Below are positions 9,573 through 60,806 of a DNA stretch of 64,000 nucleotides, one piece after another. Source of the DNA: Candidatus Azambacteria bacterium (lineage in GTDB: Bacteria; Patescibacteriota; Minisyncoccia; UBA10092). The stretch lies in assembly GCA_003455995.1 (NCBI GenBank), contig DMPO01000001.1, positions 14,945 through 78,944 on the forward strand. The letters are read 5' to 3'. The notes under the pieces are model-generated. The model had not been told where the DNA came from, did no database searches, and was given only the letters and a program-made list of their open reading frames with translations. Positions within the stretch are counted from its first letter, which is position 1, and every line of letters begins with the position of its first letter. The position numbers and the translations under genes were made by a program.

Positions 9573-9663
9573 AATCCCTCCTTTTATTGTTAAAAAACCG
9601 TTTATGCGCTCAGAAGAATTCTGAGCCTGCGTCCAGGGTTGTTTATTTCACATAATTCCAAAC

Positions 9664-9736
9664 TGCGCCCAGCAGGATTCGAACCTGCGACCGTCTCCTT
9701 AAAAGGGAGCTGCTCTACCGACTGAGCTATGGGCGC
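9664..9736 (-). tRNA. tRNA-Lys (anticodon UUU)
   Basis: Reverse complement GCGCCCATAGCTCAGTCGGTAGAGCAGCTCCCTTTTAAGGAGACGGTCGCAGGTTCGAATCCTGCTGGGCGCA; anticodon loop CTTTTAA. Confidence 0.8.
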
Positions 9737-9829
9737 AGTTTGAAATTATATTTTTATATGAACAACCCGTTAAAAGTAATAACATTACTTTTAACCCATC
9801 TCCAAAAAGGGAGCCATTTCACTACTAAT

Positions 9830-20808: not shown

Positions 20809-21534
20809 ATGTCATTATTCAACATTATGGATTCGCAAAAAACGATTATTTTTCTTCACGGCTGGGGCATGTCTTCCAAAATATTTCGGCCATTTTATCA
20901 TTATTTCAAAAATGATTTTATCGTCTATTTTTTGGATTTACCAGGTTTCGGCGATACCCCCATTGAGAGGCCAATGGTTTTGAATGACTATGCCGAATTC
21001 GTTTATAAATTTATTCAAGATAACAATATTGTAGATCCTATAATTGTCGGTCATTCTTTTGGCGGCGCGGTTGCCACAAAATTGGCGATTATTCACCCAG
21101 AAATTTTATCAAAATTAATTTTGGTCGATGCCAGTGCCATTCGACAACCGCACCACATCATTAAACTGGCAAAAAAATTGGCAGATTTATTAAAACCTCT
21201 CATGCCATTTGGATTGAGAAAGTGGATTTTGAAATTATTAAATCTTGATAAGACCGACTATGCGCAAATTGAAAGTGACGAACTTAGGACAACATTCAAA
21301 AAGGTCATACATGAAGACCTGTCCCAATATTTGCCATCAATAAAATCGCCAACACTTGTTATCTGGGGCGAAAATGATACCGCGACACCACTTAGTGAAG
21401 GAAGACTTATCGCCAATTTAATTCCAAATGCTAAACTTTCAGTTATAAAACACACCGGCCATTTTTTATTTTTGGAAAAACCATTAGAATTTGTAAATGA
21501 AATTAAAAAATTTATTGTATCTCCTACAGCTTGA
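20809..21534 (+). CDS. Alpha/beta-fold hydrolase
   Basis: HGWGMSS (oxyanion/HG motif), GHSFGG nucleophile elbow and a C-terminal His (HTGHF). The ORF-track start 20638 overlaps tRNA-Glu and is rejected. Confidence 0.7.
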   Translation: MSLFNIMDSQKTIIFLHGWGMSSKIFRPFYHYFKNDFIVYFLDLPGFGDTPIERPMVLNDYAEFVYKFIQDNNIVDPIIVGHSFGGAVATKLAIIHPEILSKLILVDASAIRQPHHIIKLAKKLADLLKPLMPFGLRKWILKLLNLDKTDYAQIESDELRTTFKKVIHEDLSQYLPSIKSPTLVIWGENDTATPLSEGRLIANLIPNAKLSVIKHTGHFLFLEKPLEFVNEIKKFIVSPTA

Positions 21535-22678
21535 AGAATACGATTTGGAACGTTTTGACGAATGGTTGAAACGCAATCCGGGGCGAGTTGTTTTGGAAAA
21601 AAAGAATCATATAAATTGGACTCCCAAAGCCCGCGCGATTTTTATATTGGCTAAAATATTCGGCATAAAAAACGCCGTTTATATTTTGTCGCCAATCGAT
21701 TCGTTATTGAAAAAACTGGTTGTTTCCAGGGCGCGCGCGAAAATAAAAAAGATGGCTGATTTGACGATAATCGGCGTTACCGGTTCCTACGGCAAGACAA
21801 CAACCAAAGACGCCATTTCGCATGTATTAATACATAAATACAACTTATTAAAAACCGAAGGAAACCGCAATACCCTTTTGGGCATAGCCAAGACCATTGT
21901 TAATGATTTGAAACCGGAACATAAAATTTTTGTTTGCGAAATGGCCGCGTATCGGCCGGGCGATATAAAAGAAATCTCCAAATTGATTAAGCCAAAAATC
22001 GGCATCGTTACCGCCATCGGTCCGATGCATTATGAAAGATTCGGTTCGATGGAAAATATTTTGAAAACAAAATTGGAACTGATTGAATCATTGCCAGATA
22101 ACGGTATTGGTTTTTTGCCGAAAGAAATTGAGCCGCAAATAAAACAAAAAAAAATTGGCGCTAAAACAGAATTTTTTTCTTCAAAAGAAGCATTATTGGT
22201 GAAAATCGGAAAACTATTTGAATTGTCCGAAAATGAAATTTTGGGACGCTTGAAAACCATGCCTCCGATATCGCGCCGCCAAGAAATGATAAAGACCTCC
22301 GGCGATATCACCATCATTGACGACTCATATAATTCCAATCCTATGGGATTTTTATCGGCCTTGGCAGCATTGAAAAATATGGCCGTTCAAAGGAGAATTT
22401 TGGTTACCCCGGGAATGATTGAACTCGGCGAAAAGCAATTTGAGTTGAATAAAAACGCCGCCATTGCGGCGGCGCAGGTCGCCGACTATGTAATCATAGT
22501 CGGCGAAATCAATAAATCCGCTTTGGAAGATGGTTTGAAAGAAGAATGGAAAGATAATTTCGACAAAAAGGTCTTTTGGGCGCCAGATCTGGATTCGGCC
22601 AAGAAAAAACTATCCGAAATCACCATCCCCCATTCCGCGATTCTTCTGGAAAACGACCTCCCCGATCATTATTTTTAA
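21497..22678 (+). CDS. murF: UDP-MurNAc-tripeptide--D-Ala-D-Ala ligase MurF (Mur ligase family)
   Basis: Mur ligase P-loop GVTGSYGKTTTK and a DDSYNSNP-like motif; adjacent to ddl. Confidence 0.8.
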   Translation: MKLKNLLYLLQLEEYDLERFDEWLKRNPGRVVLEKKNHINWTPKARAIFILAKIFGIKNAVYILSPIDSLLKKLVVSRARAKIKKMADLTIIGVTGSYGKTTTKDAISHVLIHKYNLLKTEGNRNTLLGIAKTIVNDLKPEHKIFVCEMAAYRPGDIKEISKLIKPKIGIVTAIGPMHYERFGSMENILKTKLELIESLPDNGIGFLPKEIEPQIKQKKIGAKTEFFSSKEALLVKIGKLFELSENEILGRLKTMPPISRRQEMIKTSGDITIIDDSYNSNPMGFLSALAALKNMAVQRRILVTPGMIELGEKQFELNKNAAIAAAQVADYVIIVGEINKSALEDGLKEEWKDNFDKKVFWAPDLDSAKKKLSEITIPHSAILLENDLPDHYF

Positions 22679-22681
22679 CTC

Positions 22682-22709
22682 TTGACAAATTCTATGAATT
22701 TGGTAAAAT
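22682..22709 (+). promoter_or_regulatory. Sigma70-type promoter TTGACA-16-TAAAAT
   Basis: TTGACA at 22682-22687 and TAAAAT at 22704-22709, with a 16-nt spacer. Drives the sRNA candidate. Confidence 0.6.
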
Positions 22710-22715
22710 AGTCAC

Positions 22716-22852
22716 ATAAATGGCTCCTGTGGACACAGATGAGTGCAATGGATAGCAGAACGGTTCGAAAGAACCGGAGACCCCCGTCCGATTCGGGGTC
22801 TGTGTCCCTTGAGCCAAATATAACCTCCCAAAGCATTGGGAGTTTTATTTTT
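22716..22852 (+). ncRNA. Candidate small RNA (~137 nt) with its own promoter and intrinsic terminator; class unknown
   Basis: Predicted long-range helix GGCUCCUGUGGACACAG / CUGUGUCCCUUGAGCC. Internal hairpins ACGGUUC-GAAA-GAACCGG and AGACCCCG-N7-CGGGGUCU. Terminator CTCCCAA-AGCA-TTGGGAG plus TTTTATTTTT (22825-22852). No ORF; the downstream gene is convergent. Confidence 0.5.
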
Positions 22853-24014
22853 ACTTTTCACTTTCTTTACTGGCTTCAGAAATCAAATCAGAATCGTAAC
22901 TAAATATCAGTTTTTTCCGTTCTTTATGGCGTTCAAAGCCAAGATTTATCAGCCGATCAATTAATTCATCTATATCCAATCCGCTTTTTTCCCAAAGATA
23001 GAAAGACAAGGAGCCAGGCAAAGTGTTTATTTCATTTATCCAAACATCACCGCTTTGCTCGCTGACTATAAAATCAATTCTGGCAACACCGGAAGCGTCA
23101 ACTGATCTAAAGGCGGTTTTTGCCATTTCTTGAATTCTCCTGGCTAATTTTTCACTGATGGGCGCCGGCACCAAGCGTGAAAGTCCGGCCATACCTTTCA
23201 TTTTCCCACCCTTCATATACTTGTCTTCATAGGAAAGCATTTGTTCACTACCTAATGGCTGTTCGCAAACCGACGCGATCAATTCGCTATTCCCTAAAAC
23301 GGAACAATTAATTTCGATAATATTCTCTTTTCCTTCTTCAATGATAATCCGCCGATCAAACTGGGAAGCGATATTAATTGCCCCTTCTAATTCTTTAACG
23401 CCACTAGCCTTGTTAATGGCGACACTGCTTCCCAGGTTCGCTGGCTTAACAAATACTGGATAACTTAATTCTTTTTCTATATTTTTAATAATATCAATTT
23501 TATTATCTTCCCATTCGCTTTTTAAAAACCAAACATATTTTACAGTTGGCAATCCGACCTCTTTAAACACAGATTTTTGAATAATTTTATCCATCCCCAC
23601 GGCCGAGCCCGTAACACCGCTTCCCGTGTAAGCAGCATCAGCCATTTCAAAAAGACCTTGCAAAGTTCCGTCTTCTCCAAAAGTGCCATGAATCGCCGTA
23701 AAATATATGTCGGCTGAAATTTTATTCAGAAATTTAAACGCAGATTTCGGCGCCAGCGCTTTAACACTCGGCGAGACATTAAAAATATATTCCGGCGCTT
23801 TAATGTCAGTAAGTTTTAAATTCTTATAGCTTTCCAATTTTTCCAATTTCTTATCAACAAACCATCTGCCGGTTTTATCTATATAAATCGGAATAACTTC
23901 GTATTTGTCGCGATCGATATTTTTGAAAACCTGCATTGCCGTCATAATGGAGACCTCATGCTCCACCGAACGGCTTCCAAAAACCACCGCTACTTTTGTT
24001 TTATCGTTTCTCAT
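22851..24014 (-). CDS. ddl: D-alanine--D-alanine ligase
   Basis: ATP-grasp fold; VAVVFGSRSVEHEVS N-terminus and an EINTLPG-type C-terminal motif. Confidence 0.9.
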   Translation of the reverse strand: MRNDKTKVAVVFGSRSVEHEVSIMTAMQVFKNIDRDKYEVIPIYIDKTGRWFVDKKLEKLESYKNLKLTDIKAPEYIFNVSPSVKALAPKSAFKFLNKISADIYFTAIHGTFGEDGTLQGLFEMADAAYTGSGVTGSAVGMDKIIQKSVFKEVGLPTVKYVWFLKSEWEDNKIDIIKNIEKELSYPVFVKPANLGSSVAINKASGVKELEGAINIASQFDRRIIIEEGKENIIEINCSVLGNSELIASVCEQPLGSEQMLSYEDKYMKGGKMKGMAGLSRLVPAPISEKLARRIQEMAKTAFRSVDASGVARIDFIVSEQSGDVWINEINTLPGSLSFYLWEKSGLDIDELIDRLINLGFERHKERKKLIFSYDSDLISEASKESEK

Positions 24015-27407: not shown

Positions 27408-27479
27408 TGGGCATTGCTGGAATCGGACCAGCGGCCTTTCCGATGTGAACGGAACGCTCTGCCACTGAGCTAAATGCCC
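27408..27479 (-). tRNA. tRNA-Val (anticodon CAC)
   Basis: Reverse complement GGGCATTTAGCTCAGTGGCAGAGCGTTCCGTTCACATCGGAAAGGCCGCTGGTCCGATTCCAGCAATGCCCA; anticodon stem TTCCG/CGGAA, loop TTCACAT. Confidence 0.7.
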
Positions 27480-45419: not shown

Positions 45420-45503
45420 AACAAAAAGCCCGTGTCCACTAGGTCTTGCGACCCAATATTTCTTTCGAAATATTGCCCATCGAAGAGTTGTAGAACACGG
45501 GTT
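45420..45503 (-). terminator. Long compound hairpin plus T-tract downstream of the 45672..46391 gene
   Basis: Outer stem ACCCGTGT/ACACGGGC encloses an inner AATATTTC-TTTC-GAAATATT hairpin, followed by TTTTTGTTT on the minus strand. Confidence 0.45.
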
Positions 45504-45671
45504 CTATATCTTCGATGGGTCTTTGTACCATGCCAGTATTGCTACTTGGTTTAGGCCACTTACTTATTAAATTTTATACTTATTACTATATTACAAATTT
45601 TTCTAAAAATCCAATAACAAATAAGCGGAGCTTGCTTCAGTTCTCAGTTAAGGTGTAGTGATTAAAAAAAC

Positions 45672-46459: not shown

Positions 46460-48112
46460 CTACTTTCCGGCTTGTAAATCATTGAAAATTTCTTTGAAAA
46501 TCAGGAATCGTTTGTGTAAAAAAGTATTAAATCTACTTCGTATCTTATTTAATTTCTTCTTCTTCTTTTTTCTTATTAGAAACGGACGGTCAAATTGTTC
46601 CAGGTTTTTCAAATCCTTGAAAGGCAGCAGTTCAGATTTTAAATAGTTGTTAATTTTTTCTATACTTATATTTCCATAAAATTCAATTTCAGATTTAAGC
46701 CATTTAGATGGAACTTCCTTACCTTTGCGGATATTTTGGTCCTTGTTAAGATAATGCAGATTTAATATATTATTTACCTCGCTACCAAGCACCCCCTTCT
46801 TATACAAATCAAATGGATAAAAATGGTCATCCTCCGGACTGTGTTGCTTTGTTTCTACATCTATTCGGTTGGTAGGATTGCCATCAATATAGACCGGATG
46901 CTGTTTCCATAAAGCTAATTTGACGATATTCCTTACAGAAGACCTTCCGGCTTTTATATCTGTTGTATCGAAAAATGATTTCACTATGTCAACTTTCTTT
47001 ATAGTAAGATTTGTTTCTTCTATTGCCAGTCGCTTCATTTCTATAGCATCCGGACCAATATTTCTATTATAACCAGAACCAATATATCTATTAGAAAGAG
47101 ATGCTCTCCAAAACCATTTTTTAAGTTCTGTTTGCTGTTTTGAGGTAGGCTTGTTATTAAAATAAAAGAATATACTTAACACAGTTAACAAAGTCTGAGA
47201 CGGTAGTTCACTTACTGAAATAATTCCATATTCTCCTTTTAGATACTGCATTGCATTAGATACGGCTTTGATACCATCATCGAATATCTTATTGTATTTT
47301 TTAGCATCCGCTTCCTCACGAACGGCTTGAGCAATTTTCTTCAGTGCTTTGATATCTATCTCTATAACACCTTTATCCTTTTTATTACCCATCTGCAACT
47401 GGCAAACAAGGGCGAAAACATGAATAAATGTTACCGTATTTATATCCCGAGTCAGGGATTCTCTGTTATGTCTTTTCCAAACTCTAAGCATTCTTTCAAA
47501 ATCAGTATGCTTGGTCCATGTTTCGGACAAGAAAATTGATTCCGTTGCTATCCTTGTCCCTGCTTGATTTATTCTTTCAAAAATCTCAATAGCATTTTTA
47601 TAATTATCTAAAGAAATAATAACCACCGGAAACATATAAGATCTCCCGATTAGATTAAGCAGTTTCTTAAATTTAATATCTCTAAAAACACGTTTATCAT
47701 AATCAAGAAAATATCCCTCCTCATTTTTATTAATGAAAAATTTATCAAAATCTATCAATTGGCTATAGCGAGTATCGCAAATATCATGAAAACTATCCCT
47801 AACTTGATGCTGTGAAAATACCTTTTGCCTTGCCAAATAATAAAGAGATAGAAGCCTTTGCTGACCATCTAATACAAGAAATCTTTTAGCCGGCACGTTA
47901 TCCCCATCAATGGTTCGAGCATCAATTTTTTGACCAGTTTCCCACAATACAAGGCTGCCAATAGGATATTTTTTTCTAAGACTATCGAATAGTTTCTTAA
48001 CTTGGGGAATTTTCCAAACATAACCTCGCTGAAATTCCGGAACGGCTACATGGTTTCTTTCAATAAATGAAATTAGCGTTTTTAGATTAAATTTATATAC
48101 TTTTGTAGACAT
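46460..48112 (-). CDS. DUF262/DUF1524 (GmrSD-like) nuclease
   Basis: N-terminal ParB/DUF262 motifs FQRGYVW and DGQQRL; C-terminal DUF1524/HNH-like region (DDHFYPF ... NILNLHYLNKDQNIRKGKEVPSKW). Confidence 0.65.
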   Translation of the reverse strand: MSTKVYKFNLKTLISFIERNHVAVPEFQRGYVWKIPQVKKLFDSLRKKYPIGSLVLWETGQKIDARTIDGDNVPAKRFLVLDGQQRLLSLYYLARQKVFSQHQVRDSFHDICDTRYSQLIDFDKFFINKNEEGYFLDYDKRVFRDIKFKKLLNLIGRSYMFPVVIISLDNYKNAIEIFERINQAGTRIATESIFLSETWTKHTDFERMLRVWKRHNRESLTRDINTVTFIHVFALVCQLQMGNKKDKGVIEIDIKALKKIAQAVREEADAKKYNKIFDDGIKAVSNAMQYLKGEYGIISVSELPSQTLLTVLSIFFYFNNKPTSKQQTELKKWFWRASLSNRYIGSGYNRNIGPDAIEMKRLAIEETNLTIKKVDIVKSFFDTTDIKAGRSSVRNIVKLALWKQHPVYIDGNPTNRIDVETKQHSPEDDHFYPFDLYKKGVLGSEVNNILNLHYLNKDQNIRKGKEVPSKWLKSEIEFYGNISIEKINNYLKSELLPFKDLKNLEQFDRPFLIRKKKKKKLNKIRSRFNTFLHKRFLIFKEIFNDLQAGK

Positions 48113-48131
48113 TTTTTATCAAGCAATGATA

Positions 48132-50930
48132 TTACCATTCAAACATCTCAACTATGTTTTCAATGGCGTTTTTAATGCGATCAATGATTCCCTGTCGTTC
48201 TTTGATTCGAGGCGCCTCCGGTAATAAATCGACAATATCTTGTCCGTTAGGCGGTTTTTGCGCGTACAGGTATTCACCGATCAGATGTTCAAACTTTTCA
48301 ATCGGGATATTTTCAGTTTGAGCGATAATCTTCAAACTCTCGGAACGTTCACTTGCCCAAAATTCACTAAACGCTTTTTCAACATCGTCTGACCTGCCAA
48401 TTTTGGGCAAATTTTCTTCAATGAATTTCTTGATTAAATCTTTCTTCTTACGAAGTTTGACATCCCTATCAAATAGACGCAAAATTTCTTCCGTTTTCTT
48501 TTTACGGACCACATCGGAGCTAATATTTTTAAGACCGGCAATGAGTTGGATAATATAGTCAAAGTTAATAATATCCCGAACGGTCAGTTCAATTTCAAAG
48601 TCAATTTGGTCCAAAATAGATTCAATTTCGCTATTATTATTTTTACGATCCTCATAAACATCCAAGTATTTGCTTTGATAATCATAAAATTCCTGCTCCG
48701 TTATTCCAATGTCATTAAAAGAAAATTCTGCGAATGTCTCGAGCGACGATTTGATACGAAGTAAATCACGAAATATCTTTACAAATTCCGCTTTTTCTTC
48801 TTCTCCTTGCAACCCATCGACACTAGAAACAGTCGGCACCTTTTCTCGTAATTCCGCCAGTTTATCTTCAAATTCTTTTTTCTGGACTTCATACGGTTTT
48901 TTAAACACAACATCTTTGGCGTTTTCATCACCAAAAAGCGCCAATGCTTTATCGGTTGCTTCTTTTAAGTTTCTAAATGAAACAATATTGCCGTGAGGTT
49001 TGTCAGAATTTAAAAGCCGATTTGTTCGTGAATATGCTTGAATCAATCCGTGATATCGCAAATTTTTATCCACATACAGCGTATTGAGCCGTGGACTATC
49101 AAACCCCGTCAAAAACATATTAACCACCAAAACGAGATCGACTTCCTTATTCTTTATTCTCTTCTGCAAATCCCGGTAATAATCATAGAAACGATCAGTT
49201 GAAAAGTTTGTTGAATATCGTTTGTTGTAATCCTTTATACAGTCCTCTAAGTAATCTCTTGAATGTTGATTGACAACTGCCCCCTCGTCGTCAAAGACAT
49301 CAACATCAAGTATGTCGGAGCTCTCGTCTTCGTTCGCTTTATAGGTAAAAATTGTCGCAATAGAAAAATCTTCCGCTTTCTTATCCTTGAGTAATTTATA
49401 ATACTTTTTTAATACCTCAATAGATGAAACGGCAAATAATGCATTAAACTTTCCCTGTTTTGTTTTTCGTTTCCAGTCCGCCAGTATATAATCCGTAATT
49501 TTATTCAACCGGTCGGCGCTTTCAAGCACTTCTTGGGTATTAATGCCTTCAATCATAACATCGGCAAAAATATCTGCGTCTAATGTATCCGGATCTTTTT
49601 GCGTGTATTTCCCAACATATTCAACAGCAAAACCAAGCACATTATTATCTGAAATCGCATCGGTAATAATATACTTATGCAAACATTCGCCAAAGACATC
49701 AACGGTCGTTACTCCTCCCACATTATTATCAGCAAAGATTGGCGTTCCGGTGAAGCCAAACAATTGAGCTTTTTTAAAGAATCCTTTTATCCGAGCATGT
49801 GTCTGCCCAAATTGACTTCTGTGACATTCATCAAAAATCACAACCACTTTTTCATTGGCTAAATATTCAAAATGCTTGAGATGAGATTCTCTCCCGATAG
49901 CGATATCAAGCTTTTGAATTGTAGTAACGATAAGTTTTCTATTTTTATCTTCAAGTTGCTTCACAAGACTATGCGTGTTATCAGTGCCATCCACCGCCCC
50001 TTCGGAAAAGGAGTTGAACTCTTTTGTTGTTTGAATATCCAAGTCCTTTCTATCCACCACAAAAAGCACCTTTTTAACTTCAGGCATTCGTGAAAGTACT
50101 TGACTTGTTTTGTATGAAGTTAATGTTTTGCCTGATCCTGTGGTGTGCCAAATATAGCCATTTTTATCAGATTCACGCACTCGGTCCTCAATCGCTCTTA
50201 CTGCATAATATTGATATGGGCGAAGGGTCATCGGGATTTGCGTTGCTTCAGCCAATACAATATATTCAGCAATCATTTCTGATAGAGCGCATTTTTCCAG
50301 AAATGCATCGGCAAACTCATCTATCTTGGTAATTTTTCTATTCTTCACATCCGTCCAGTAGAAAGTTTGTTCAAATGATTGTTTTGGATTATTTGAAAAA
50401 TATTTTGTATTTACTCCGTTTGAAATCACAAATATTTGGATATATTCAAACAGTGTTCCCGTAAATGAGTGTTTGTGATAGCGCTGGATTTGGTTAAAGG
50501 CCTCTTTGAGTTCCATACCTCGGCGCTTAAGTTCAATTTGCACCAATGGCAAGCCATTCACCAACAAAGTCACGTCATAGCGATTTTCATAGCGTCCGGC
50601 TTGAGTAATTTGCTGCGCAACTTGATATTCATTTTTGCACCACTGATCCATATTGAAAAACCGCACATAGAAAATGCTCTCATCATCACGAGTCAGGACA
50701 AGGCGATCACGCAAGGTCTTGGCTTTTTGAAAACGGTCGCTTTTGTTTATGTGATTCAATATGCGAATAAACTCATCATCAGAAAAAGTTGTTTGATTGA
50801 ATTTTTCAAGCTGTCCTCGCAGGTTCGCAACCATCGCAGCGGCGTCTTCCAAGACAACCGAAGAAAAACCCAACCGCCCAAGCTGTTCAATCAAGGTCTT
50901 TTCAAGTTGTTGCTCACTTTGGTGGGTCAT
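48132..50930 (-). CDS. hsdR: Type I restriction enzyme R subunit (HsdR)
   Basis: SF2 helicase motifs TGSGKT and DECHRS, an N-terminal PD-(D/E)xK nuclease region and the HsdR C-terminal domain; 932 aa. Confidence 0.9.
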
Positions 50931-50931
50931 A

Positions 50932-52800
50932 TTATTTTTTTATAAACGGTTGAATCGATCCATTAATAAAACTTTTCAACATAAGAGACCTTGGTGTTTT
51001 TTTGTTTTCAAACTTTTTTTCTATTTCTTTAATCCCACTTTTTAACCTTTTCTTTAATTTTTTGAGAAATGGGATTTCCTGCTCAATGCCATTTATTTGA
51101 GTCCTTAAATTTTCATACCTATCTTTAAAAGTTTTCTGTAATATATGTAACATAATTGGCCTACCTTTGATTAATATTTTTGCTATTTCTTCTACATCAA
51201 AATATTGAAAATAAGCATCTCCATTTCCTGTATTATGCAAAAAATTATAATTTATTAATAAATCTAAGCTCTGTTCAGTGTTTTTTTCTCCCTTTAAGAT
51301 AGGCATCAATTCGTTTTTAATCTTTTCTTTGATGAATATTTCTTTATGGCTCTTTATCTTTTCATTAATTAATTCAATCAATTTTCCCCACTCTTCATTT
51401 TCCATTCCAAAATATTCAAGCCCATAAGTACTTTTTCTCCAACTAAAACCCCACTCCTGTTCGCATAACTTTAAAGGAAATTTCTTTTCTTTAATTAATA
51501 ACTCGATGTATTCTTTGCCCTCTTTAAAAATATCTTTTTTGTCTTTCTTCAATAAACCTTCTTTAGAAAAATTCAAAAAAATTCCAAAAACATGTAACAC
51601 CACATAAAAATCATCATAGTCTCTATTTTCCCACTTTTTTTGTACATCTTTTAAGTTACTAAAAAAATCCTCATCGCTGTGATCATAGCGATGCCAAAGT
51701 TTTTGCCATGATTCTTTGTTTACACCAATAAGATTTTCAAAATTACCAACTAATTCTCCATTTTCTTTTTCTGATAAATTAATTCCTTGTAAAATTTTTC
51801 CTAATATATTCACATCAAAACAAGTGACCCAATGAGACAGTCCTTCGTCATATTTATCTAAAAAGTGGTCCTTATTTTTGTCATCTAATCCTTTAAAAAA
51901 TTGGGGATACTTTTTAAAAAAATCTTCACTTTTTATATTACCTCTCTTGTATTCAATAAAAATGACAACAAATTCATAGAACATTTTTTCAAACAATTCA
52001 ACATTTTCTTTTACCTTGCTTGAAAAACTTTTAAAGAAATACTCAAAGCTAGATAACGCTTGCTGTATTAATCTTAAATTATCATATTTAGACTGGGTAA
52101 AGATTTTTGAAAGTAATTTTTTTATATTTTCAGAATAATTTATTAAATCATCGCCCATCACCCCCTCGGTAAACAAAGTTATTGCCTCCTCCTGTGAAGG
52201 ATTAATGCAAAATTCTTTCCCAATCAATTTTTCTTTAATTTTTCTATATTTATCACCACTCTTAGACTCTAGAAGATCTTCTTCATTCGCAACTAAAATA
52301 ACCTTTTGATTTTTAAATTCAACGAAATTATTTATATACCCGAGTAATTTATCAATTTCAATATTACATCTTTCAAGATCATCAAAAACAAAAACACAGC
52401 CCTTACTTTTCTTTAAGAAAATATCCACCAACAACTCATCAGCGTCAGAAGGAACCCAGTCTCTAATTTTTGGTATTTTTTTAATGTTTCTGAGTATGCT
52501 ACTTGCAAAAATATTATATTTTTCTGGGACAAAAGGAATCAGTTCAATGATTATTTTTTCTTTTATCCCGTTAAAACTATCAACACCATACAAGCTAATA
52601 TGTAAAATCTTTTTTTCTTTTTTTATATCAATGTAGTTCTTAATAAAATAAGTTTTCCCGCAACCCCACTTTCCTTTTAATAAGACAGCAAATGGAAGAT
52701 TATTTTCGAAATCACAATAATAATCCAAATATTCTTCTATATGTTTGTTTATTATCATTGTATTTATACAAACAACCCCTGCATCAAGCCCCTTTTCCAT
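50932..52800 (-). CDS. KAP-family P-loop NTPase embedded in the hsd operon
   Basis: Walker [14 protein letters not shown] and Walker [11 protein letters not shown] fit the KAP pattern. Overlaps the hsdS 3' end by 37 nt (or starts at the alternative M15, 52758) and ends 2 nt before hsdR. Confidence 0.65.
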
Positions 52801-53984
52801 TGCTCGGCTTGGACGATTTGTTGTTGTTTTGATTCTATTATTTTATCTATTGAAGTTAAAAATCCCGCAATTTTTTGCTGTTCTAAGAATAAGGGGACCG
52901 GCACAAAAAAATTCTTTACAATTTTAGCATTCAAGTTTCCTTGCGTGCCGGTTTCAATGAAGCTATGCACTAACTTTTTATAAAAAAATAAATAATAATA
53001 TAAATATTCTAAATTAATAATTTTACTATTTGGTATTAAATTGATCATTGCCTGAGATGTTGCAAGAGGTATTTGGTTTATAGCAACAAACCCGACGCTT
53101 GCATACATTGAATATATGAGTGAACCCTTTGGCACAATCCATGCTGATGAATTTTTTAGACCCTCTTCACTTATACTTTTCTCAGTTTGCAATATATATT
53201 TTCCACTCTTTGTCATGTCGGCAATCGAAAGAAATGGGATACTGCCATCATAGTATTCTTTCTTTGTTGAGGTTGGCGTTCCTCCACTCTTTGCCTTATC
53301 ACAAATTTCCCCCAGTTTCTTCTCCTCCCACTTCGGGAACTCCTTTCCATCCTCATCCTTGAAACGGATTTCTTGTGCAAAGATTTTTTGCATCATTCCT
53401 TTTTTGTAAGATTCAAAAGATTCTTTTTGCGCCTGCAGATTTTCAATCCACGCATCCGTTGATCTTAAAAAATCAGAAATTTTTTGTTGCTCTGGAATGG
53501 ATGGAAAAATAACCGGGCATCTTAAAACTTCATCTTTTCTTAAGTTTGTTTGACTTACGCCATTATCAAATTTTAAAAAATATTTATTTCGATTTAATAT
53601 TCTAATCAAAAAGGGACTTACAATTTCTTTTGATTTAATTCCACCAATTCTTTGATTGAGTGTATAAGTATTATCCTCATTAACTAAAAAGCACTTACTT
53701 ATTGCCTTACCATTCGGAATATCACTCATAACAATAGCAATGTCGTCTTTTTTAAGTGAGGATATCTGTTTATCTGAATATTTTTTAACCTCGCCATTTT
53801 GTGAAATAAATTTTGAATTTACAACAATATATTTTCCATATTCTGAAATATCTTGCTCGTGAGCTTTTCCATTCCAAAATTTAGAAACCTCCCCCAACTT
53901 ATTCTCCTCCCACACACCAGAAAAACCTGGAAAGCGAAGTTTCGGTATTTTTTTAGTTTCTAATTGTACAGCTTTACTTGGCAT
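52764..53984 (-). CDS. hsdS: Type I restriction-modification specificity subunit (HsdS)
   Basis: Two target-recognition domains separated and followed by conserved coiled-coil repeats (...LPVPLFLEQQKIA ... IPEQQKISDFL...). Confidence 0.85.
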   Translation of the reverse strand: MPSKAVQLETKKIPKLRFPGFSGVWEENKLGEVSKFWNGKAHEQDISEYGKYIVVNSKFISQNGEVKKYSDKQISSLKKDDIAIVMSDIPNGKAISKCFLVNEDNTYTLNQRIGGIKSKEIVSPFLIRILNRNKYFLKFDNGVSQTNLRKDEVLRCPVIFPSIPEQQKISDFLRSTDAWIENLQAQKESFESYKKGMMQKIFAQEIRFKDEDGKEFPKWEEKKLGEICDKAKSGGTPTSTKKEYYDGSIPFLSIADMTKSGKYILQTEKSISEEGLKNSSAWIVPKGSLIYSMYASVGFVAINQIPLATSQAMINLIPNSKIINLEYLYYYLFFYKKLVHSFIETGTQGNLNAKIVKNFFVPVPLFLEQQKIAGFLTSIDKIIESKQQQIVQAEQWKRGLMQGLFV

Positions 53985-53986
53985 AA

Positions 53987-55564
53987 CTAAAATGGTTTAT
54001 TGATTTTCAATTCATTGCAAAATTTTTCAATCTTGTTTTTCAGACCGAGCTCGTTTGCGTGCAATTCTTTCAACCTCTTTGAAACCTCTTTAATATCCAC
54101 TGCTACTTCTTCCTCAACTGTGTCCACATAGCGTGGGATATTTAGATTGTATTCATTTTCTTTGATTTCTTTTATGCTTGCTCTGTGTGAATATTTTTCT
54201 ATTTCTTTGCGACTTTTATAGGTATTAAAAATCTTCTCAATATTTTCATTGGTGAGTTTGTTTTTATTACCAATCTTTTCAAAGCCTTTGGAGGCATCTA
54301 TAAACAGAATGTCTTCATCATCTTTGCGACATTTTTTAAAAATAAGAACTGTTGCTGGAATAGCTGCCCCATAAAAAAGATTCGAAGGAAGTCCAATGAC
54401 TGCATCAAGATAATTTTGCTTTTCTATGATGTATTTTCTAATATGGCCTTCGGCGCCGGACCGGAAAAGCGCCCCATGAGGCAATACAATAGCCATAGTG
54501 CCATTATCGCCGAGGTGATAGAGCATATGAGTTACAAAGGCATAATCAGCTTTATTTTTTGGAGCTAATCGCCCATATTGAGAAAATCGATCATCATGCG
54601 CTAGTTGTGGGTCGCTATTGCCTTTCCACTTTGAGGAAAAAGGTGGATTGGCGACGATTGCCTCCGCCTTAAGGTCTGCGTGCATATCCTCTCTAAGGGT
54701 ATCGCCTTGGCGTATTGAAAAACGATCAAAGCGCACTCCGTGCAAAATCATATTCATTCGGGCAAGGTTGTAGGTCGTCGGGTTGAGCTCTTGTCCATAA
54801 TATTTTACAACTTCGGTAAATTCGCCAAGACGAAGTAAAAGCGAACCAGAACCACAAGTTGCGTCATATGCTGATTTGATGCGTTTTTTATCTACAGAAA
54901 CAATTTGAGCAAGCAAGCGTGATACTTGAGCAGGAGTATAGAACTCACCACCTTTTTTACCAGCGCCGGCAGCAAATTCTCCAATCAAATATTCATAAGC
55001 ATCGCCAAGAAGATCGCTTTTGGCGTCTTCAAGCTTAAAATCAATACCATTAAGCAATGTGAGCACTTCAACAACAACTTCATTCTTTTCACTCTCACGA
55101 GAACCAAGTTTCGTGGAAGTCAGGTCCACATCATCAAACAGTCCTTTGAAGTCATCCTCACTTGCGGTTCCTGCCGAGGTTTTTTCAATAGCATTAAGAA
55201 TATTTTTAAGATCCTCCAGAATAAAAGTTTTTTGATCTTTTATTTCACCTTTTCCCTTTTTGACTAAATATGAAAAAAGCTGTGACGGTCTTAAGAAAAA
55301 ACCAAGTTCATCAATGCAAGCCTTTTCTATATGCTTCAAATAGTCCTTCCCCTCCTTTGTGTTTTCTTTTATTTCAGCAAAAGTGATTTTTTCACGAGCA
55401 AGAAGTTTTTCATTTACATATCGCTCAAGTTTTTCAGAAAGATATTTATAAAAAATAAAGCCAAGAATATAGTTTTTATATTCATCGGCATTCATTTTGC
55501 CTCGCAGCACATTAGCCACGCCCCATAACTGTCTCTCTAATATCCTTTTTTGTTCTTCTGACAT
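53987..55564 (-). CDS. hsdM: Type I restriction-modification DNA methyltransferase (HsdM, N6-adenine)
   Basis: HsdM N-terminal domain, an FxGxG-like SAM motif (DATCGSGSLL) and catalytic NPPF (VANPPFSSKW). Confidence 0.92.
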   Translation of the reverse strand: MSEEQKRILERQLWGVANVLRGKMNADEYKNYILGFIFYKYLSEKLERYVNEKLLAREKITFAEIKENTKEGKDYLKHIEKACIDELGFFLRPSQLFSYLVKKGKGEIKDQKTFILEDLKNILNAIEKTSAGTASEDDFKGLFDDVDLTSTKLGSRESEKNEVVVEVLTLLNGIDFKLEDAKSDLLGDAYEYLIGEFAAGAGKKGGEFYTPAQVSRLLAQIVSVDKKRIKSAYDATCGSGSLLLRLGEFTEVVKYYGQELNPTTYNLARMNMILHGVRFDRFSIRQGDTLREDMHADLKAEAIVANPPFSSKWKGNSDPQLAHDDRFSQYGRLAPKNKADYAFVTHMLYHLGDNGTMAIVLPHGALFRSGAEGHIRKYIIEKQNYLDAVIGLPSNLFYGAAIPATVLIFKKCRKDDEDILFIDASKGFEKIGNKNKLTNENIEKIFNTYKSRKEIEKYSHRASIKEIKENEYNLNIPRYVDTVEEEVAVDIKEVSKRLKELHANELGLKNKIEKFCNELKINKPF

Positions 55565-59159: not shown

Positions 59160-60806
59160 ATGGCCGATATCAACAACACTGAAAAACATTGGCTAATCGC
59201 CTTTTATGGTAGGGTCTCAACATCGCTGCAGGAGGAACAAAAAACAATTGAGACTCAACTCATGGCAATGAATGATTTCGCCGATAAGAAATTCGGTAAA
59301 GGTAACTATACTGTAGTCAAAGAATATCTCGATGAAGGTTGGAGCGGAGACAATATTGTAAGACCTAGTCTTGACCAGCTTCGGGTTGATGCAAAGAAAA
59401 AGATTTGGGACGCAGTAATAATTTATGACCCGGACCGATTGGCTCGCAGATATTCATTGCAAGAGTTGGTAATGGACGAAATAAAAGATGTCGGGATTGA
59501 AGTTATTTTTGTTACCGTATCTACTCCCAAAAACATAGAGGATAAGATCCTTTATGGGGTACGGGGACTGTTCGCTGAATATGAGCGAGCAAAAATATCG
59601 GAACGTTTCCGCCTTGGGAAACTTCTTAAGGTTAGAAATGGCAATATTCTTACAACAGAGGCTCTTTATGGATATGATTACATTCGCAATGACAAGATAA
59701 ATAAAAAGCCCGGCTACTATGTGATAAATGAAGAAGAAGCAAGGGTTGTAAGAATGATATTTGCTTGGGTTGGCGAAGAAGGATTAACGCTCCGGCAAGT
59801 AGTGAGACGATTGCAAGAAATGGAGATAAAACCAAGAAAAAGTAAAAGGGGGGTTTGGAATACAAGCACTTTATCTACTCTACTAAGACACAAAGCGTAT
59901 ATAGGAATGGCTCATTGGGGTAGTTCCTATGCGGTAGTTCCAAAGAATCCTACAAATAAGGAAAAATATCGGCAAGTAAAAAAGAGTAGTCGAAAAATCA
60001 AACCGGAAACAGAATGGATTGCGTCGAACATCCCAGTGCCACCTATCATTGGGGAAGAACTATTTATGAAAGTGCGAGAACAATTAAAAACCAATTTTGC
60101 GCTGTGCCAACGGAATACCAAAAATGAATATCTACTTGGCGGTAAAATATTTTGTTCTTGCGGCACAAAGAGATGTGGCGAAGGTCCTCAACATGGCAAA
60201 CATCTTTACTATCGTTGCAGTAATAGAATCTATAACTTCCCTCTGTCCCCTACATGCAATGAGAAAGGAATTAATGCGAGAATCGCTGATAAATTAGTAT
60301 GGCAAAAAATCAAAGAGTTTATGACTTCTCCGAAATTATTATCACGACAAATCAATCGACGGAAAGATATCCGGAAAAATAAAACTCTACCATTAATTGA
60401 AAATATAGGAATAGCGGAAAAAGAACTTGCGAAACTGAAAGCGCAGGAAGACCGCTACATCAAGGCATATGGAAACGGCGCATTAACTATTGAACAATTA
60501 AAAGAGCAAGTAACATCAATAAAAAGTCATATGGCAACATTTGAATCGCAAATAAGAAAGGTCAATCAAGAAAAAAGCCGGATTGATACTGCTCCAACAC
60601 CAACTGAAAAAGAAATAAAAATATTTACAGATGAGGCAGCCAAAACTATTAATGACTTGAATTTTGAGACAAAACGGACAATCATTAGAAATACTGTAGG
60701 AAGAATTATTGGCACACAGCGACAGCTACAGGTGTCTGGCGAAATACCATTAACACTAAATTATGTCACATACAAAACTAACTATCGGTATAGTTGGCCT
60801 GCCTAA
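59160..60806 (+). CDS. Large serine recombinase (resolvase/invertase N-terminal domain + recombinase domain + zinc ribbon)
   Basis: Catalytic Ser context FYGRVSTSLQEEQ, resolvase-like N-terminus, recombinase domain, Cys cluster (CSCGTKRCGEG...YYRCSNR) and a coiled-coil C-terminus; 548 aa. Confidence 0.88.
   Translation: MADINNTEKHWLIAFYGRVSTSLQEEQKTIETQLMAMNDFADKKFGKGNYTVVKEYLDEGWSGDNIVRPSLDQLRVDAKKKIWDAVIIYDPDRLARRYSLQELVMDEIKDVGIEVIFVTVSTPKNIEDKILYGVRGLFAEYERAKISERFRLGKLLKVRNGNILTTEALYGYDYIRNDKINKKPGYYVINEEEARVVRMIFAWVGEEGLTLRQVVRRLQEMEIKPRKSKRGVWNTSTLSTLLRHKAYIGMAHWGSSYAVVPKNPTNKEKYRQVKKSSRKIKPETEWIASNIPVPPIIGEELFMKVREQLKTNFALCQRNTKNEYLLGGKIFCSCGTKRCGEGPQHGKHLYYRCSNRIYNFPLSPTCNEKGINARIADKLVWQKIKEFMTSPKLLSRQINRRKDIRKNKTLPLIENIGIAEKELAKLKAQEDRYIKAYGNGALTIEQLKEQVTSIKSHMATFESQIRKVNQEKSRIDTAPTPTEKEIKIFTDEAAKTINDLNFETKRTIIRNTVGRIIGTQRQLQVSGEIPLTLNYVTYKTNYRYSWPA

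What the first reader, a model, noticed from the sequence alone, without database searches (positions are those of the whole stretch)
22682..22852. Stand-alone ~137-nt structured sRNA between murF and ddl with near-consensus promoter and intrinsic terminator
A TTGACA-16-TAAAAT promoter is followed ~7 nt later by a transcript. The transcript has a closing helix (GGCUCCUGUGGACACAG / CUGUGUCCCUUGAGCC), a GAAA-tetraloop hairpin, a GC hairpin and a three-way-junction-like core, and ends in a classic terminator. It contains no ORF and lies in the dcw cell-wall cluster. The core CAGAUGAG superficially recalls the hammerhead CUGAUGA but lacks the invariant U.
Basis: seen in the sequence. Interest (0 to 1): 0.6.

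Follow-up and report, generated by a model that had tools for sequence, protein, structure and literature searches.

The report
Orphan anticodon-less tRNA-like RNA gene
Between two cell-wall genes of an ultra-small groundwater bacterium (Candidatus Azambacteria) sits a small self-contained gene for an RNA that folds like a transfer RNA but has a four-base cap where the anticodon should be; only this one lineage has it, so it is a curiosity of unknown function.

Summary
A near-consensus promoter (TTGACA-16-TGnTAAAAT, 22682-22709) is followed by a very stable fold (z about -5 to -6) and an intrinsic terminator (22825-22852). All of this lies in the 172-bp gap between convergent Mur-ligase (murF-like) and ddl genes.

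The fold is not a three-way junction and not a hammerhead. It is a tRNA cloverleaf. It has a 7-bp acceptor stem that continues into a leader-trailer helix, and a D arm whose sequence (AGUGCAAUGGAUAGCA) also occurs in genuine tRNA-Arg genes. It has a 5-nt variable region and a T arm with G53-C61 and loop UCCGAUU. The anticodon arm is replaced by a perfect 6-bp stem capped by GAAA.

A covariance model built only from genuine tRNAs ranks this RNA sixth in the window, after the five real tRNAs (25.5 bits; next best 11.4). ARAGORN finds no tRNA here and Rfam shows no match to any family.

The cassette is identical in 99.7-99.95 % strains. It is absent from all eight related contigs that cover the junction, down to 87 % nucleotide identity. 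No relatives were found in viral or metagenome contigs or in 5.8 billion predicted proteins. It is therefore a lineage-specific, non-decoding tRNA-derived RNA with no link to the dcw cluster. Its function is untested; a tRNA mimic or decoy and a young relic are about equally likely.

The parts
22682..22709 (+). Sigma-70-type promoter. -35 TTGACA (22682-22687), 16-nt spacer, extended-10 TG (22701-22702), -10 TAAAAT (22704-22709). Inferred transcription start about 22716.
   Evidence: 11/12 match, TG present. (7 sites of this quality in the window vs 1.4 expected). The start site is inferred, not measured.
22721..22732 (+). 5' strand of the leader-trailer extension. UGGCUC (22721-22726) pairs with GAGCCA (22811-22816). 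An internal loop follows (22727-22730, with a possible G22729-C22808 pair). G22731 and G22732 pair with C22807 and C22806, extending the acceptor helix (positions -2 and -1).
   Evidence: MFE and centroid folds. Inverted repeats I3 and I4.
22733..22739 (+). Acceptor-stem 5' strand ACACAGA (tRNA positions 1-7). It pairs with UCUGUGU at 22799-22805.
   Evidence: Alignment to the tRNA covariance model R2. Fold.
22740..22758 (+). Junction U8-G-A (one nucleotide more than canonical), then the D arm. D stem is (G)UGC/GCA(G) and D loop is AAUGGAUA (A14, G18, G19, A21 present).
   Evidence: The 16-nt string AGUGCAAUGGAUAGCA also occurs in genuine phage tRNA-Arg(CCG) genes.
22761..22776 (+). Arm at the anticodon position. 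It is a perfect 6-bp stem CGGUUC/GAACCG capped by a GAAA tetraloop (22767-22770). There is no 7-nt anticodon loop and no U33.
   Evidence: The tRNA model had to skip this loop through a local end. ARAGORN calls no tRNA here.
22777..22781 (+). 5-nt variable region GAGAC (positions 44-48). The span from position 26 to 48 is 23 nt, exactly as in class I tRNAs.
   Evidence: Read from the sequence. Alignment.
22782..22798 (+). T arm. 5-bp stem CCCCG/CGGGG with G53-C61. The 7-nt loop UCCGAUU has U54, C56 and A58 present, with C at position 55.
   Evidence: The window's own tRNA-Val (27408-27479) has the same loop sequence.
22799..22816 (+). Acceptor 3' strand UCUGUGU (66-72), C73, then the trailer strand CC-UU-GAGCCA, which pairs with the leader. 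No CCA is encoded, as is also true of the other tRNA genes in the window.
22825..22852 (+). Intrinsic terminator. 7-bp hairpin CTCCCAA-AGCA-TTGGGAG followed by TTTTATTTTT. The T run overlaps the ddl stop codon (22851-22853). The hairpin also scores as a weaker terminator for ddl on the minus strand.
   Evidence: both strands listed.
22679..22878 (.). Lineage-specific segment. Homology to every cassette-less relative stops at 22678-22685 and resumes at 22875-22879. Relatives have about 24 bp here. The segment covers the whole RNA cassette plus the last roughly 9 codons of ddl.
   Evidence: blastn and MAFFT comparisons.

Best explanation
Region 22682-22852 is an independent gene for a non-decoding, tRNA-derived small RNA (a tRNA mimic).

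How it is made: transcription from its own strong promoter gives a primary transcript of about 135 nt that ends at an intrinsic terminator.

What its core looks like: the core (22733-22806) folds into a tRNA cloverleaf. It keeps the acceptor stem, the D arm, the 5-nt variable region and the T arm. It therefore probably keeps the D-loop/T-loop 'elbow' of the tRNA L-shape. The anticodon loop is replaced by a 6-bp stem with a GAAA tetraloop, so it cannot read a codon. Leader and trailer pair to extend the acceptor helix.

Inferred mechanism (not shown): the RNA is recognised by factors that read the tRNA elbow and acceptor stem, such as RNase P, 3' processing enzymes and the CCA-adding enzyme. 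It then acts, if it acts at all, as a decoy or scaffold for a tRNA-binding protein. This is the logic used by bacterial Y RNAs.

Origin: the cassette was gained recently in one Candidatus Azambacteria lineage and is unrelated to the function of the neighbouring cell-wall genes.

What is shown and what is inferred: the cassette anatomy, the tRNA likeness, the lack of an anticodon loop, the lineage restriction and the absence of homologues are shown. Transcription, processing and any decoy or scaffold role are inferred.
For: Anatomy: promoter and terminator. The cloverleaf is the unconstrained MFE fold, z = -4.95 to -6.2.

tRNA likeness, tested in both directions:
- A model built from this RNA alone (R1), run without filters, finds the window's real tRNAs as its next-best plus-strand hits. 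tRNA-Lys scores 32.2 bits (E = 6e-6), and Gln, Val and Glu also appear. It aligns arm by arm to phage tRNA-Arg at 30-36 bits.
- A model built only from 18 genuine tRNAs (R2), run without filters, gives the five true tRNAs first. This RNA comes next at 25.5 bits (E = 4.5e-5), aligned full-length over 22733-22809. The next hit scores 11.4 bits.
- On 156 kb of other loci, R2 hit only ARAGORN-called tRNAs plus one truncated tRNA fragment.

Sequence detail: the D-arm sequence matches real tRNA-Arg genes. The T loop is identical to that of the window's tRNA-Val.

Stem integrity: the modelled pairs are all Watson-Crick with no G-U. The only mismatch is the outer G10-G25 position of the D stem.

Lineage restriction: the cassette is identical in strains at 99.74-99.95 % nt identity (L029-L031). 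It is absent in L032, L010, L011, L001-L003 and L026/L027.
Against: - There is no expression data.
- No homologue exists, so there is no covariation and no evidence of purifying selection. Strain diversity is too low to be informative: about 0.4 SNPs would be expected in the cassette and none is seen.
- The curated Rfam tRNA model gives no hit at E<=10. ARAGORN finds nothing at default settings and only strained folds at relaxed settings. The tRNA likeness therefore rests on my own models and on inspection.
- The Levitt pair would be A15-C48, which is non-canonical. There is also one extra nucleotide between the acceptor and D stems.
- No partner protein is identified. No TROVE/Ro60 gene is found among the 28 of 29 ORFs of at least 250 aa that were scanned.
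- Both strands fold equally well. Strand assignment therefore rests on the promoter, the terminator, the loop motifs and the plus-strand-only R2 hit.
Confidence: 0.5

Rival explanations
1. The RNA is a young tRNA-gene relic with no function of its own. A tRNA gene, with its promoter and terminator, landed between the convergent genes by illegitimate recombination and lost its anticodon loop. What is retained is at most the bidirectional terminator, which now separates convergent Mur-ligase and ddl transcription. In relatives these two genes overlap by 4 nt with no terminator.
For: - The cassette occurs in a single lineage. It is absent from relatives down to 87 % nt identity and has no homologues anywhere searched.
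- It sits exactly at a homology breakpoint. Contigs L026/L027 are mosaic at this point.
- The hairpin at 22825-22842 also scores as a terminator on the minus strand, directly after the ddl stop.
- The ddl C-terminal tail was remodelled together with the insertion.
Against: - A decaying pseudogene should accumulate mismatches. Here all modelled pairs are Watson-Crick apart from the outer G10-G25 position of the D stem. The anticodon arm is a clean 6-bp stem plus GNRA module rather than a damaged 5-bp stem plus 7-nt loop.
- The promoter is among the best seven in the window.
- No parent tRNA with a similar sequence is seen in the window.
Confidence: 0.33
2. The RNA is a bacterial Y RNA. Its long basal helix with an internal loop binds a Ro60 (Rsr, TROVE-domain) protein, and its tRNA-like module recruits an effector such as PNPase. 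This is how D. radiodurans Yrn1 and Salmonella YrlA work.
For: - The architecture (a 5'/3' basal stem with an internal loop plus a tRNA-like module) matches the description of Y RNAs.
- The unpermuted arm order resembles Yrn1, which is said to have an 'anticodon arm' with a shortened 6-nt loop (PMC4201824).
Against: - The GNCGAA(N0-1)G motif near the 5' end, proposed for Rsr recognition, is absent (sequence; motif from PMC4201824).
- YrlA is circularly permuted (V-T-AS-D). This RNA is not.
- No Rfam family, of any kind, matches at E<=10.
- Y RNA genes lie next to rsr. No TROVE protein is found among 28 of the 29 ORFs of at least 250 aa in the 64-kb window.
Confidence: 0.05
3. The element acts in cis on the Mur-ligase mRNA. 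Read-through transcripts carry the tRNA-like structure, which defines or protects the mRNA 3' end. This could work through RNase P cleavage or as a block to exonucleases, as tRNA-like 't-elements' do in organelles.
For: The structure begins 43 nt after the Mur-ligase stop codon on the same strand. No terminator lies between them.
Against: - It has its own near-consensus promoter with an extended -10, placed between the stop codon and the structure. A pure 3'-UTR element would not need this.
- Relatives manage without any such element.
Confidence: 0.07
4. The region is a self-cleaving hammerhead-like ribozyme, or it encodes the small protein of the public annotation (antisense 53-aa 'hypothetical protein UV53_C0022G0015').
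For: - CAGAUGA differs from the hammerhead CUGAUGA at one base, and a GAA follows the next hairpin.
- An ATG-initiated 53-codon ORF exists on the minus strand and was called by gene finders on 42 contigs.
Against: Against the ribozyme:
- U4 is changed.
- The core spacing is inconsistent: either the 5' core has 8 nt or the GAA is out of register.
- The stem III closing pair is C-G, not A15.1-U16.1.
- A whole extra hairpin replaces H17.
- No hammerhead or other ribozyme model matches at E<=10.

Against the protein:
- It is a singleton in 5.8 billion proteins.
- It starts inside the terminator hairpin and has no Shine-Dalgarno-like sequence upstream.
- It lies entirely antisense to a tRNA-like fold.
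- Its sequence is unremarkable.
Confidence: 0.02

Closest known systems
Canonical class I tRNA (Rfam RF00005)
   Same: - Cloverleaf with a 7-bp acceptor stem.
- D arm with an 8-nt loop carrying A14, G18, G19 and A21.
- 5-nt variable region.
- 5-bp T stem with G53-C61 and a 7-nt T loop with U54, C56 and A58.
- Identical spacing from position 26 to 48.
- A stand-alone gene with a promoter close upstream and a terminator. CCA is not encoded, like the window's real tRNA genes.
   Different: - No anticodon loop. A 6-bp stem plus GAAA tetraloop takes its place, with C instead of U33.
- One extra nucleotide after U8.
- G10-G25 and A15-C48 are mismatched.
- The acceptor helix continues into a leader-trailer helix.
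- It is below detection for ARAGORN and for the Rfam tRNA model.
Bacterial Y RNAs: D. radiodurans Yrn1 and the YrlA family (Chen et al. 2014, PMC4201824)
   Same: - A small non-coding RNA combining a basal helix formed by the 5' and 3' ends with a tRNA-like module that lacks a functional anticodon.
- YrlA is a substrate of tRNA enzymes (TruB, DusA, RNase P, CCA-adding enzyme). This gives a precedent for how such a mimic can work.
   Different: - YrlA is permuted: its ends emerge at the anticodon side and its acceptor is a closed hairpin.
- YrlA carries GNCGAA(N)G near the 5' end.
- YrlA is encoded beside rsr.
- None of these three features holds here.
tRNA-like domain of tmRNA, and eukaryotic or viral tRNA mimics (mascRNA, plant-virus TLS)
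   Same: Non-decoding RNAs that keep the acceptor/T-arm half or the whole L-shape so that tRNA enzymes handle them. This comparison rests on my own knowledge; it was not tested here.
   Different: - ARAGORN finds no tmRNA here.
- There is no tag ORF, no G3-U70 pair and no pseudoknots.
- This RNA keeps a full D arm and a capped anticodon-position arm.
Hammerhead ribozyme
   Same: It shares only a 6-of-7 match to the CUGAUGA box next to a hairpin followed by GAA.
   Different: - The invariant U4 is missing.
- The core spacing is wrong.
- The stem III closing pair is wrong.
- There is an extra helix at the cleavage site.
- No model matches.

Membership tests
tRNA (functional, decoding) | Cloverleaf with acceptor, D, anticodon and T arms of canonical size | tested here: met
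   MFE fold. Full-length alignment to the tRNA model R2 at 25.5 bits, ranked just after the five true tRNAs.
tRNA (functional, decoding) | 7-nt anticodon loop with U33 presenting a triplet | tested here: not met
   The arm is CGGUUC-GAAA-GAACCG. The canonical 27-43 register cannot pair. ARAGORN finds no tRNA, and R2 skips the loop.
tRNA (functional, decoding) | Reaches the curated Rfam RF00005 gathering score (29 bits) | tested here: not met
   No tRNA match is listed even at E<=10 on 85 or 351 nt.
tRNA (functional, decoding) | Conserved tertiary-interaction nucleotides (U8, A14, G18, G19, G53-C61, U54-A58, R15-Y48) | tested here: inconclusive
   All are present by inspection except the Levitt pair (A15-C48) and U55 (it is C, as in the window's tRNA-Val). 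There is one extra nucleotide after U8. The 3D fold was not tested.
YrlA / bacterial Y RNA | GNCGAA(N0-1)G motif near the 5' end (proposed Rsr contact) | tested here: not met
   The motif is absent from 22716-22745 and from the whole RNA. Motif definition comes from PMC4201824.
YrlA / bacterial Y RNA | Permuted tRNA-like module (V-T-AS-D order) with the acceptor as a closed hairpin | tested here: not met
   The arm order here is acceptor-D-AC-V-T-acceptor, as in a tRNA.
YrlA / bacterial Y RNA | Gene adjacent to a Ro60/Rsr (TROVE) gene | tested here: not met
   No TROVE domain is found in 28 of the 29 ORFs of at least 250 aa in the window. The rest of the 585-kb genome could not be examined.
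YrlA / bacterial Y RNA | Binding to Ro60 and tethering of an effector | not testable with these tools
   This needs co-immunoprecipitation or in vitro binding.
Hammerhead ribozyme | Core C3-U4-G5-A6-N7-G8-A9 ... G12-A13-A14, A15.1-U16.1, H17, and three helices only | tested here: not met
   U4 is A. The spacing is inconsistent. 15.1-16.1 is C-G. There is a fourth helix. No hammerhead model matches at E<=10.
Any Rfam 15 family | Match at the family's gathering score | tested here: not met
   There is no hit at 22682-22852. Only noise of at most 16 bits appears at E<=10.

The most novel reading that the evidence does not exclude
This may be a newly born, functional tRNA mimic in a candidate-phyla-radiation bacterium. 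[quoted passage not shown] That molecule either titrates a tRNA-binding factor, in the manner of a Y RNA but without Ro60, or is aminoacylated without an anticodon. The second option is suggested by the G(-1):C73 pair at 22732/22806, which is the main HisRS identity element (from my own knowledge, not tested here). The charged RNA would then feed a non-ribosomal aminoacyl-transfer reaction. If true, it would be a rare snapshot of how a regulatory RNA originates from a tRNA gene.
Probability: 0.15. Interest if true: 0.7.

Novelty: new variant of a known kind. Interest (0 to 1): 0.38.

Why it matters
If the RNA is expressed and handled by tRNA enzymes, it would be an unpermuted, anticodon-less tRNA mimic in Patescibacteria with no Ro60 gene in the 64-kb window. 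Almost no regulatory RNAs are known in that group. Its lineage restriction would make it a natural example of very recent birth of an sRNA from a tRNA gene. On the practical side, the locus is annotated in public records as an antisense 53-aa hypothetical protein, which is probably a mis-call. If it is only a relic, it is an ordinary by-product of recombination at a gene junction.

Tried and rejected
Rfam:
- Rfam at gathering thresholds gave nothing here.
- Permissive Rfam thresholds gave only noise.

Synteny:
- A ddl-based scan of 185,579 species genomes gave three close Patescibacteria loci (L001-L003), none with the RNA.
- Mur-ligase homologues at 83 %, 76 % and about 90 % identity (L010, L011, L032) also lack it.

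DNA pattern scans:
- A D-loop...T-loop pattern in viral contigs returned only real tRNA-Arg genes.
- An architecture pattern (D loop + CGAAAG + T loop) found 0 viral hits and 7 metagenome hits, all chance matches in coding DNA.
- Two further viral patterns gave 0 hits and 1 chance hit.
- blastn against phages gave only a terminator-like chance hit.

Other searches:
- Searching the protein database with the spurious antisense ORF, as a proxy for nucleotide homology, found only itself.
- A single-sequence covariance model found no paralogue in the window or in relatives.
- ARAGORN at relaxed thresholds produced strained, contradictory folds, which I disregard.
- No target-site duplication or terminal inverted repeats flank the insertion. 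Only weak short repeats are present.
- Literature searches for tRNA-like RNAs in CPR/Patescibacteria found nothing.

Rejected readings and limits:
- SRP RNA, tmRNA, 5S and 6S readings were rejected on architecture (a four-way junction of tRNA dimensions) and the lack of Rfam hits.
- The genome contigs and metagenome-contig scan quotas are exhausted.

Full report
**1. The observation**

- The consensus scan finds TTGACA-16-TAAAAT at 22682-22709 with an extended-10 TG, matching 11 of 12 positions.
- In the whole window only seven sites on both strands reach 11/12, against 1.4 expected from Markov-shuffled sequence. Promoters of this type are therefore used in this genome, and this is one of the best.
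- An intrinsic terminator follows: hairpin 22825-22842 and then TTTTATTTTT.
- Between promoter and terminator the RNA folds far better than shuffles. For 22716-22850 the energy is -56.1 kcal/mol, z = -6.2. For the core 22721-22816 it is -45.2 kcal/mol, z = -4.95. In both cases 0 of 200 shuffles did as well.
- The flanking genes are a MurF-type Mur ligase (21497-22678, +) and D-Ala-D-Ala ligase (22851-24014, -). They are convergent.
- No Rfam family matches, either at gathering scores or at E<=10.

**2. What the fold is**

The minimum-free-energy structure is a four-way junction, and its dimensions are those of a tRNA.
- Acceptor stem: a 9-bp helix GGACACAGA/UCUGUGUCC, whose inner 7 bp correspond to positions 1-7 and 66-72.
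- D arm: the linker U-G-A, then (G)UGC-AAUGGAUA-GCA(G).
- Anticodon position: two A's, then a 6-bp stem CGGUUC/GAACCG closed by GAAA.
- Variable region and T arm: GAGAC, then CCCCG-UCCGAUU-CGGGG with G53-C61, U54 and A58.
- Acceptor 3' strand, then C73.
- The span from position 26 to position 48 is 23 nt, exactly the canonical value.
- The leader (UGGCUC) and trailer (GAGCCA) pair beyond a small internal loop, which extends the acceptor helix.

I tested the tRNA likeness in both directions.
- Model R1 was built from this RNA alone. Run without filters over the window, it finds itself at 124.8 bits. Its next-best plus-strand matches are the window's real tRNAs: tRNA-Lys at 32.2 bits (E = 6e-6), then Gln, Val and Glu.
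- R1 also aligns arm by arm to phage tRNA-Arg(CCG) genes at 30-36 bits. Those loci had been selected by a D-loop/T-loop pattern taken from this RNA. They show that the 16-nt string AGUGCAAUGGAUAGCA also occurs in genuine tRNA genes.
- Model R2 was built from 18 genuine tRNAs, none of them the pattern-selected ones. Run without filters over the window, it lists the five real tRNAs at 29-69 bits. This RNA comes next, over 22733-22809, at 25.5 bits (E = 4.5e-5) and full length. The next hit scores 11.4 bits.
- On 156 kb of unrelated loci, the same model hit only ARAGORN-confirmed tRNAs and one truncated tRNA fragment.
- The T loop UCCGAUU, with C at position 55, is the same as in the window's tRNA-Val.

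There are honest caveats.
- ARAGORN calls nothing here at default settings. At relaxed settings it gives strained folds.
- The curated Rfam tRNA model does not list the RNA even at E<=10.
- The Levitt pair would be A15-C48.
- There is one extra nucleotide after U8.
- The RNA is therefore tRNA-like, not a tRNA. With a GAAA tetraloop in place of the 7-nt loop, it cannot decode.

**3. Hammerhead lead**

CAGAUGA differs from CUGAUGA at the invariant U4.
- If stem II is GUGC/GCAG, the following GAA is out of register. If stem II is UGC/GCA, the 5' core has one nucleotide too many.
- The stem III closing pair is C-G rather than A15.1-U16.1.
- A whole hairpin (the T arm) sits where H17 should be.
- No ribozyme model matches.
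- I reject this reading.

**4. Distribution**

The organism is a Candidatus Azambacteria (Patescibacteria/CPR) population from Rifle groundwater. The source assembly is GCA_001774215.1, a 585-kb contig, and the same proteins occur on about 60 contigs.
- The cassette is base-for-base identical in strains that are 99.74-99.95 % identical over 4-6 kb (L029, L030, L031). That diversity is too low to show selection.
- It is absent from every other relative examined:
  - L032, at 87.5 % nt identity upstream and 82 % downstream;
  - L010, with 83 % aa identity in the Mur ligase;
  - L011, with 76 %;
  - the GTDB genomes L001-L003.
- In those relatives the two genes abut, or overlap by 4 nt in most.
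- Homology ends at 22678-22685 and resumes at 22875-22879. The lineage-specific segment is therefore about 200 bp and includes a remodelled ddl C-terminal tail.
- Two short contigs from independent assemblies (L026, L027) are 98.4-98.9 % identical up to the Mur-ligase stop. After it they are 78 % identical and lack the cassette. The cassette therefore marks a recombination, or assembly, breakpoint.
- No repeats typical of transposition flank the cassette.
- The link to the dcw cluster is thus accidental.

**5. Search for relatives**

All searches for relatives came back empty.
- An architecture pattern (D loop, CGAAAG, T loop, flexible spacing) gave 0 hits in IMG/VR. It gave 7 hits in 241 million metagenome records, all chance matches in coding DNA.
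- Other viral patterns and blastn against phages were negative.
- R1 found no paralogue in the window or in related loci.
- Gene callers translate the antisense strand as a 53-aa 'hypothetical protein UV53_C0022G0015'. Searching that peptide in 5.8 billion proteins returned only itself.
- The RNA is therefore an orphan. No covariation test is possible.

**6. How it most likely works**

Shown:
- a self-contained transcription unit, by sequence signals only;
- a tRNA-shaped, anticodon-less RNA;
- restriction to one lineage.

Inferred:
- The transcript is recognised by enzymes that read the tRNA elbow and acceptor stem (RNase P, 3' trimming, CCA addition).
- It cannot enter decoding.
- Any function would be as a mimic that titrates or scaffolds a tRNA-binding factor. 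The precedent is bacterial Y RNAs, whose tRNA-like modules are modified and processed by tRNA enzymes (PMC4201824).

Membership in that family fails on three points.
- The GNCGAA(N)G motif is absent.
- YrlA is circularly permuted, whereas this RNA is not.
- No TROVE/Ro60 gene is among the 28 of 29 ORFs of at least 250 aa in the window that were scanned. The rest of the genome could not be inspected.

The main rival is that this is a young, functionless derivative of a tRNA gene, whose terminator incidentally insulates two convergent genes.
- Against pure decay: every modelled pair is Watson-Crick, apart from the outer G10-G25 position of the D stem. The anticodon arm is a clean 6-bp plus GNRA module, and the promoter is near-consensus.
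- For it: there is a complete lack of conservation evidence.
- I put the mimic reading at about 0.5, including the identity claim, which I hold at about 0.8. I put the relic at about 0.33.

A speculative point concerns G22732, which pairs with C73 (22806). G-1:C73 is the principal histidine identity element (my own knowledge), so anticodon-independent charging is conceivable. It is untested.

**7. Verdict**

It needs correction on three points. The fold is a tRNA-like cloverleaf, it is not hammerhead-like, and it is not tied to cell-wall genes.

It is a new variant of a known kind (tRNA-derived, tRNA-mimicking RNA). Interest is moderate to low, because it is confined to one lineage and lacks both expression and comparative evidence.

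Noticed in passing
window 45441-45557 (-): There is a full-length match to the Rfam LOOT RNA family (RF03000) at 75.4 bits, against a gathering score of 46.4. It lies at the edge of a low-GC stretch (31-36 % GC).
   Followed up: no
window 46460-55564 (-): A low-GC defence island is present. It encodes GmrSD-type endonuclease (46460-48112), type I R-M HsdR (48132-50930), a KAP-family NTPase inserted between R and S (50932-52800), HsdS (52764-53984) and HsdM (53987-55564). A large serine recombinase lies at 59160-60806.
   Followed up: partly
window 9649-9751 (-), around tRNA-Lys 9661-9736: The tRNA-Lys gene is flanked by a perfect inverted repeat of about 15 bp. In RNA this would extend the acceptor stem to about 22 bp. 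The 5' arm of the repeat contains the gene's own -10 box (TATAAT, ending 8 nt before the mature 5' end). It is therefore unclear whether the helix ever forms in RNA. The other four tRNA genes have no such repeat.
   Followed up: partly
L026 and L027 versus window 21461-23045: Two short contigs from independent assemblies are 98.4-98.9 % identical to the window through the Mur-ligase gene. From the stop codon onwards they are only 78 % identical, and their ddl tail is like that of L032. This is either a real recombinant haplotype or a chimeric assembly at a strain-variable junction.
   Followed up: partly
window 27408-27479 (-), tRNA-Val(CAC): The T loop reads UCCGAUU, with C at position 55 instead of the near-universal U that becomes pseudouridine. 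The same loop occurs in the tRNA-like RNA.
   Followed up: no
window 22675-22836 (-): Public records annotate a 53-aa 'hypothetical protein UV53_C0022G0015' (Ca. Azambacteria GW2011_GWE1_42_9) antisense to the RNA. It is a singleton cluster seen on 42 contigs and is probably a gene-caller artefact.
   Followed up: yes
L021 12690-12751 (+): An unrelated metagenome contig carries a truncated tRNA fragment, the 5' two-thirds of a tRNA with a GGAUA D loop. It scores 27 bits with R2 and 17.3 bits with the Rfam tRNA model, and ARAGORN does not call it. I used it only to calibrate the tRNA model.
   Followed up: partly
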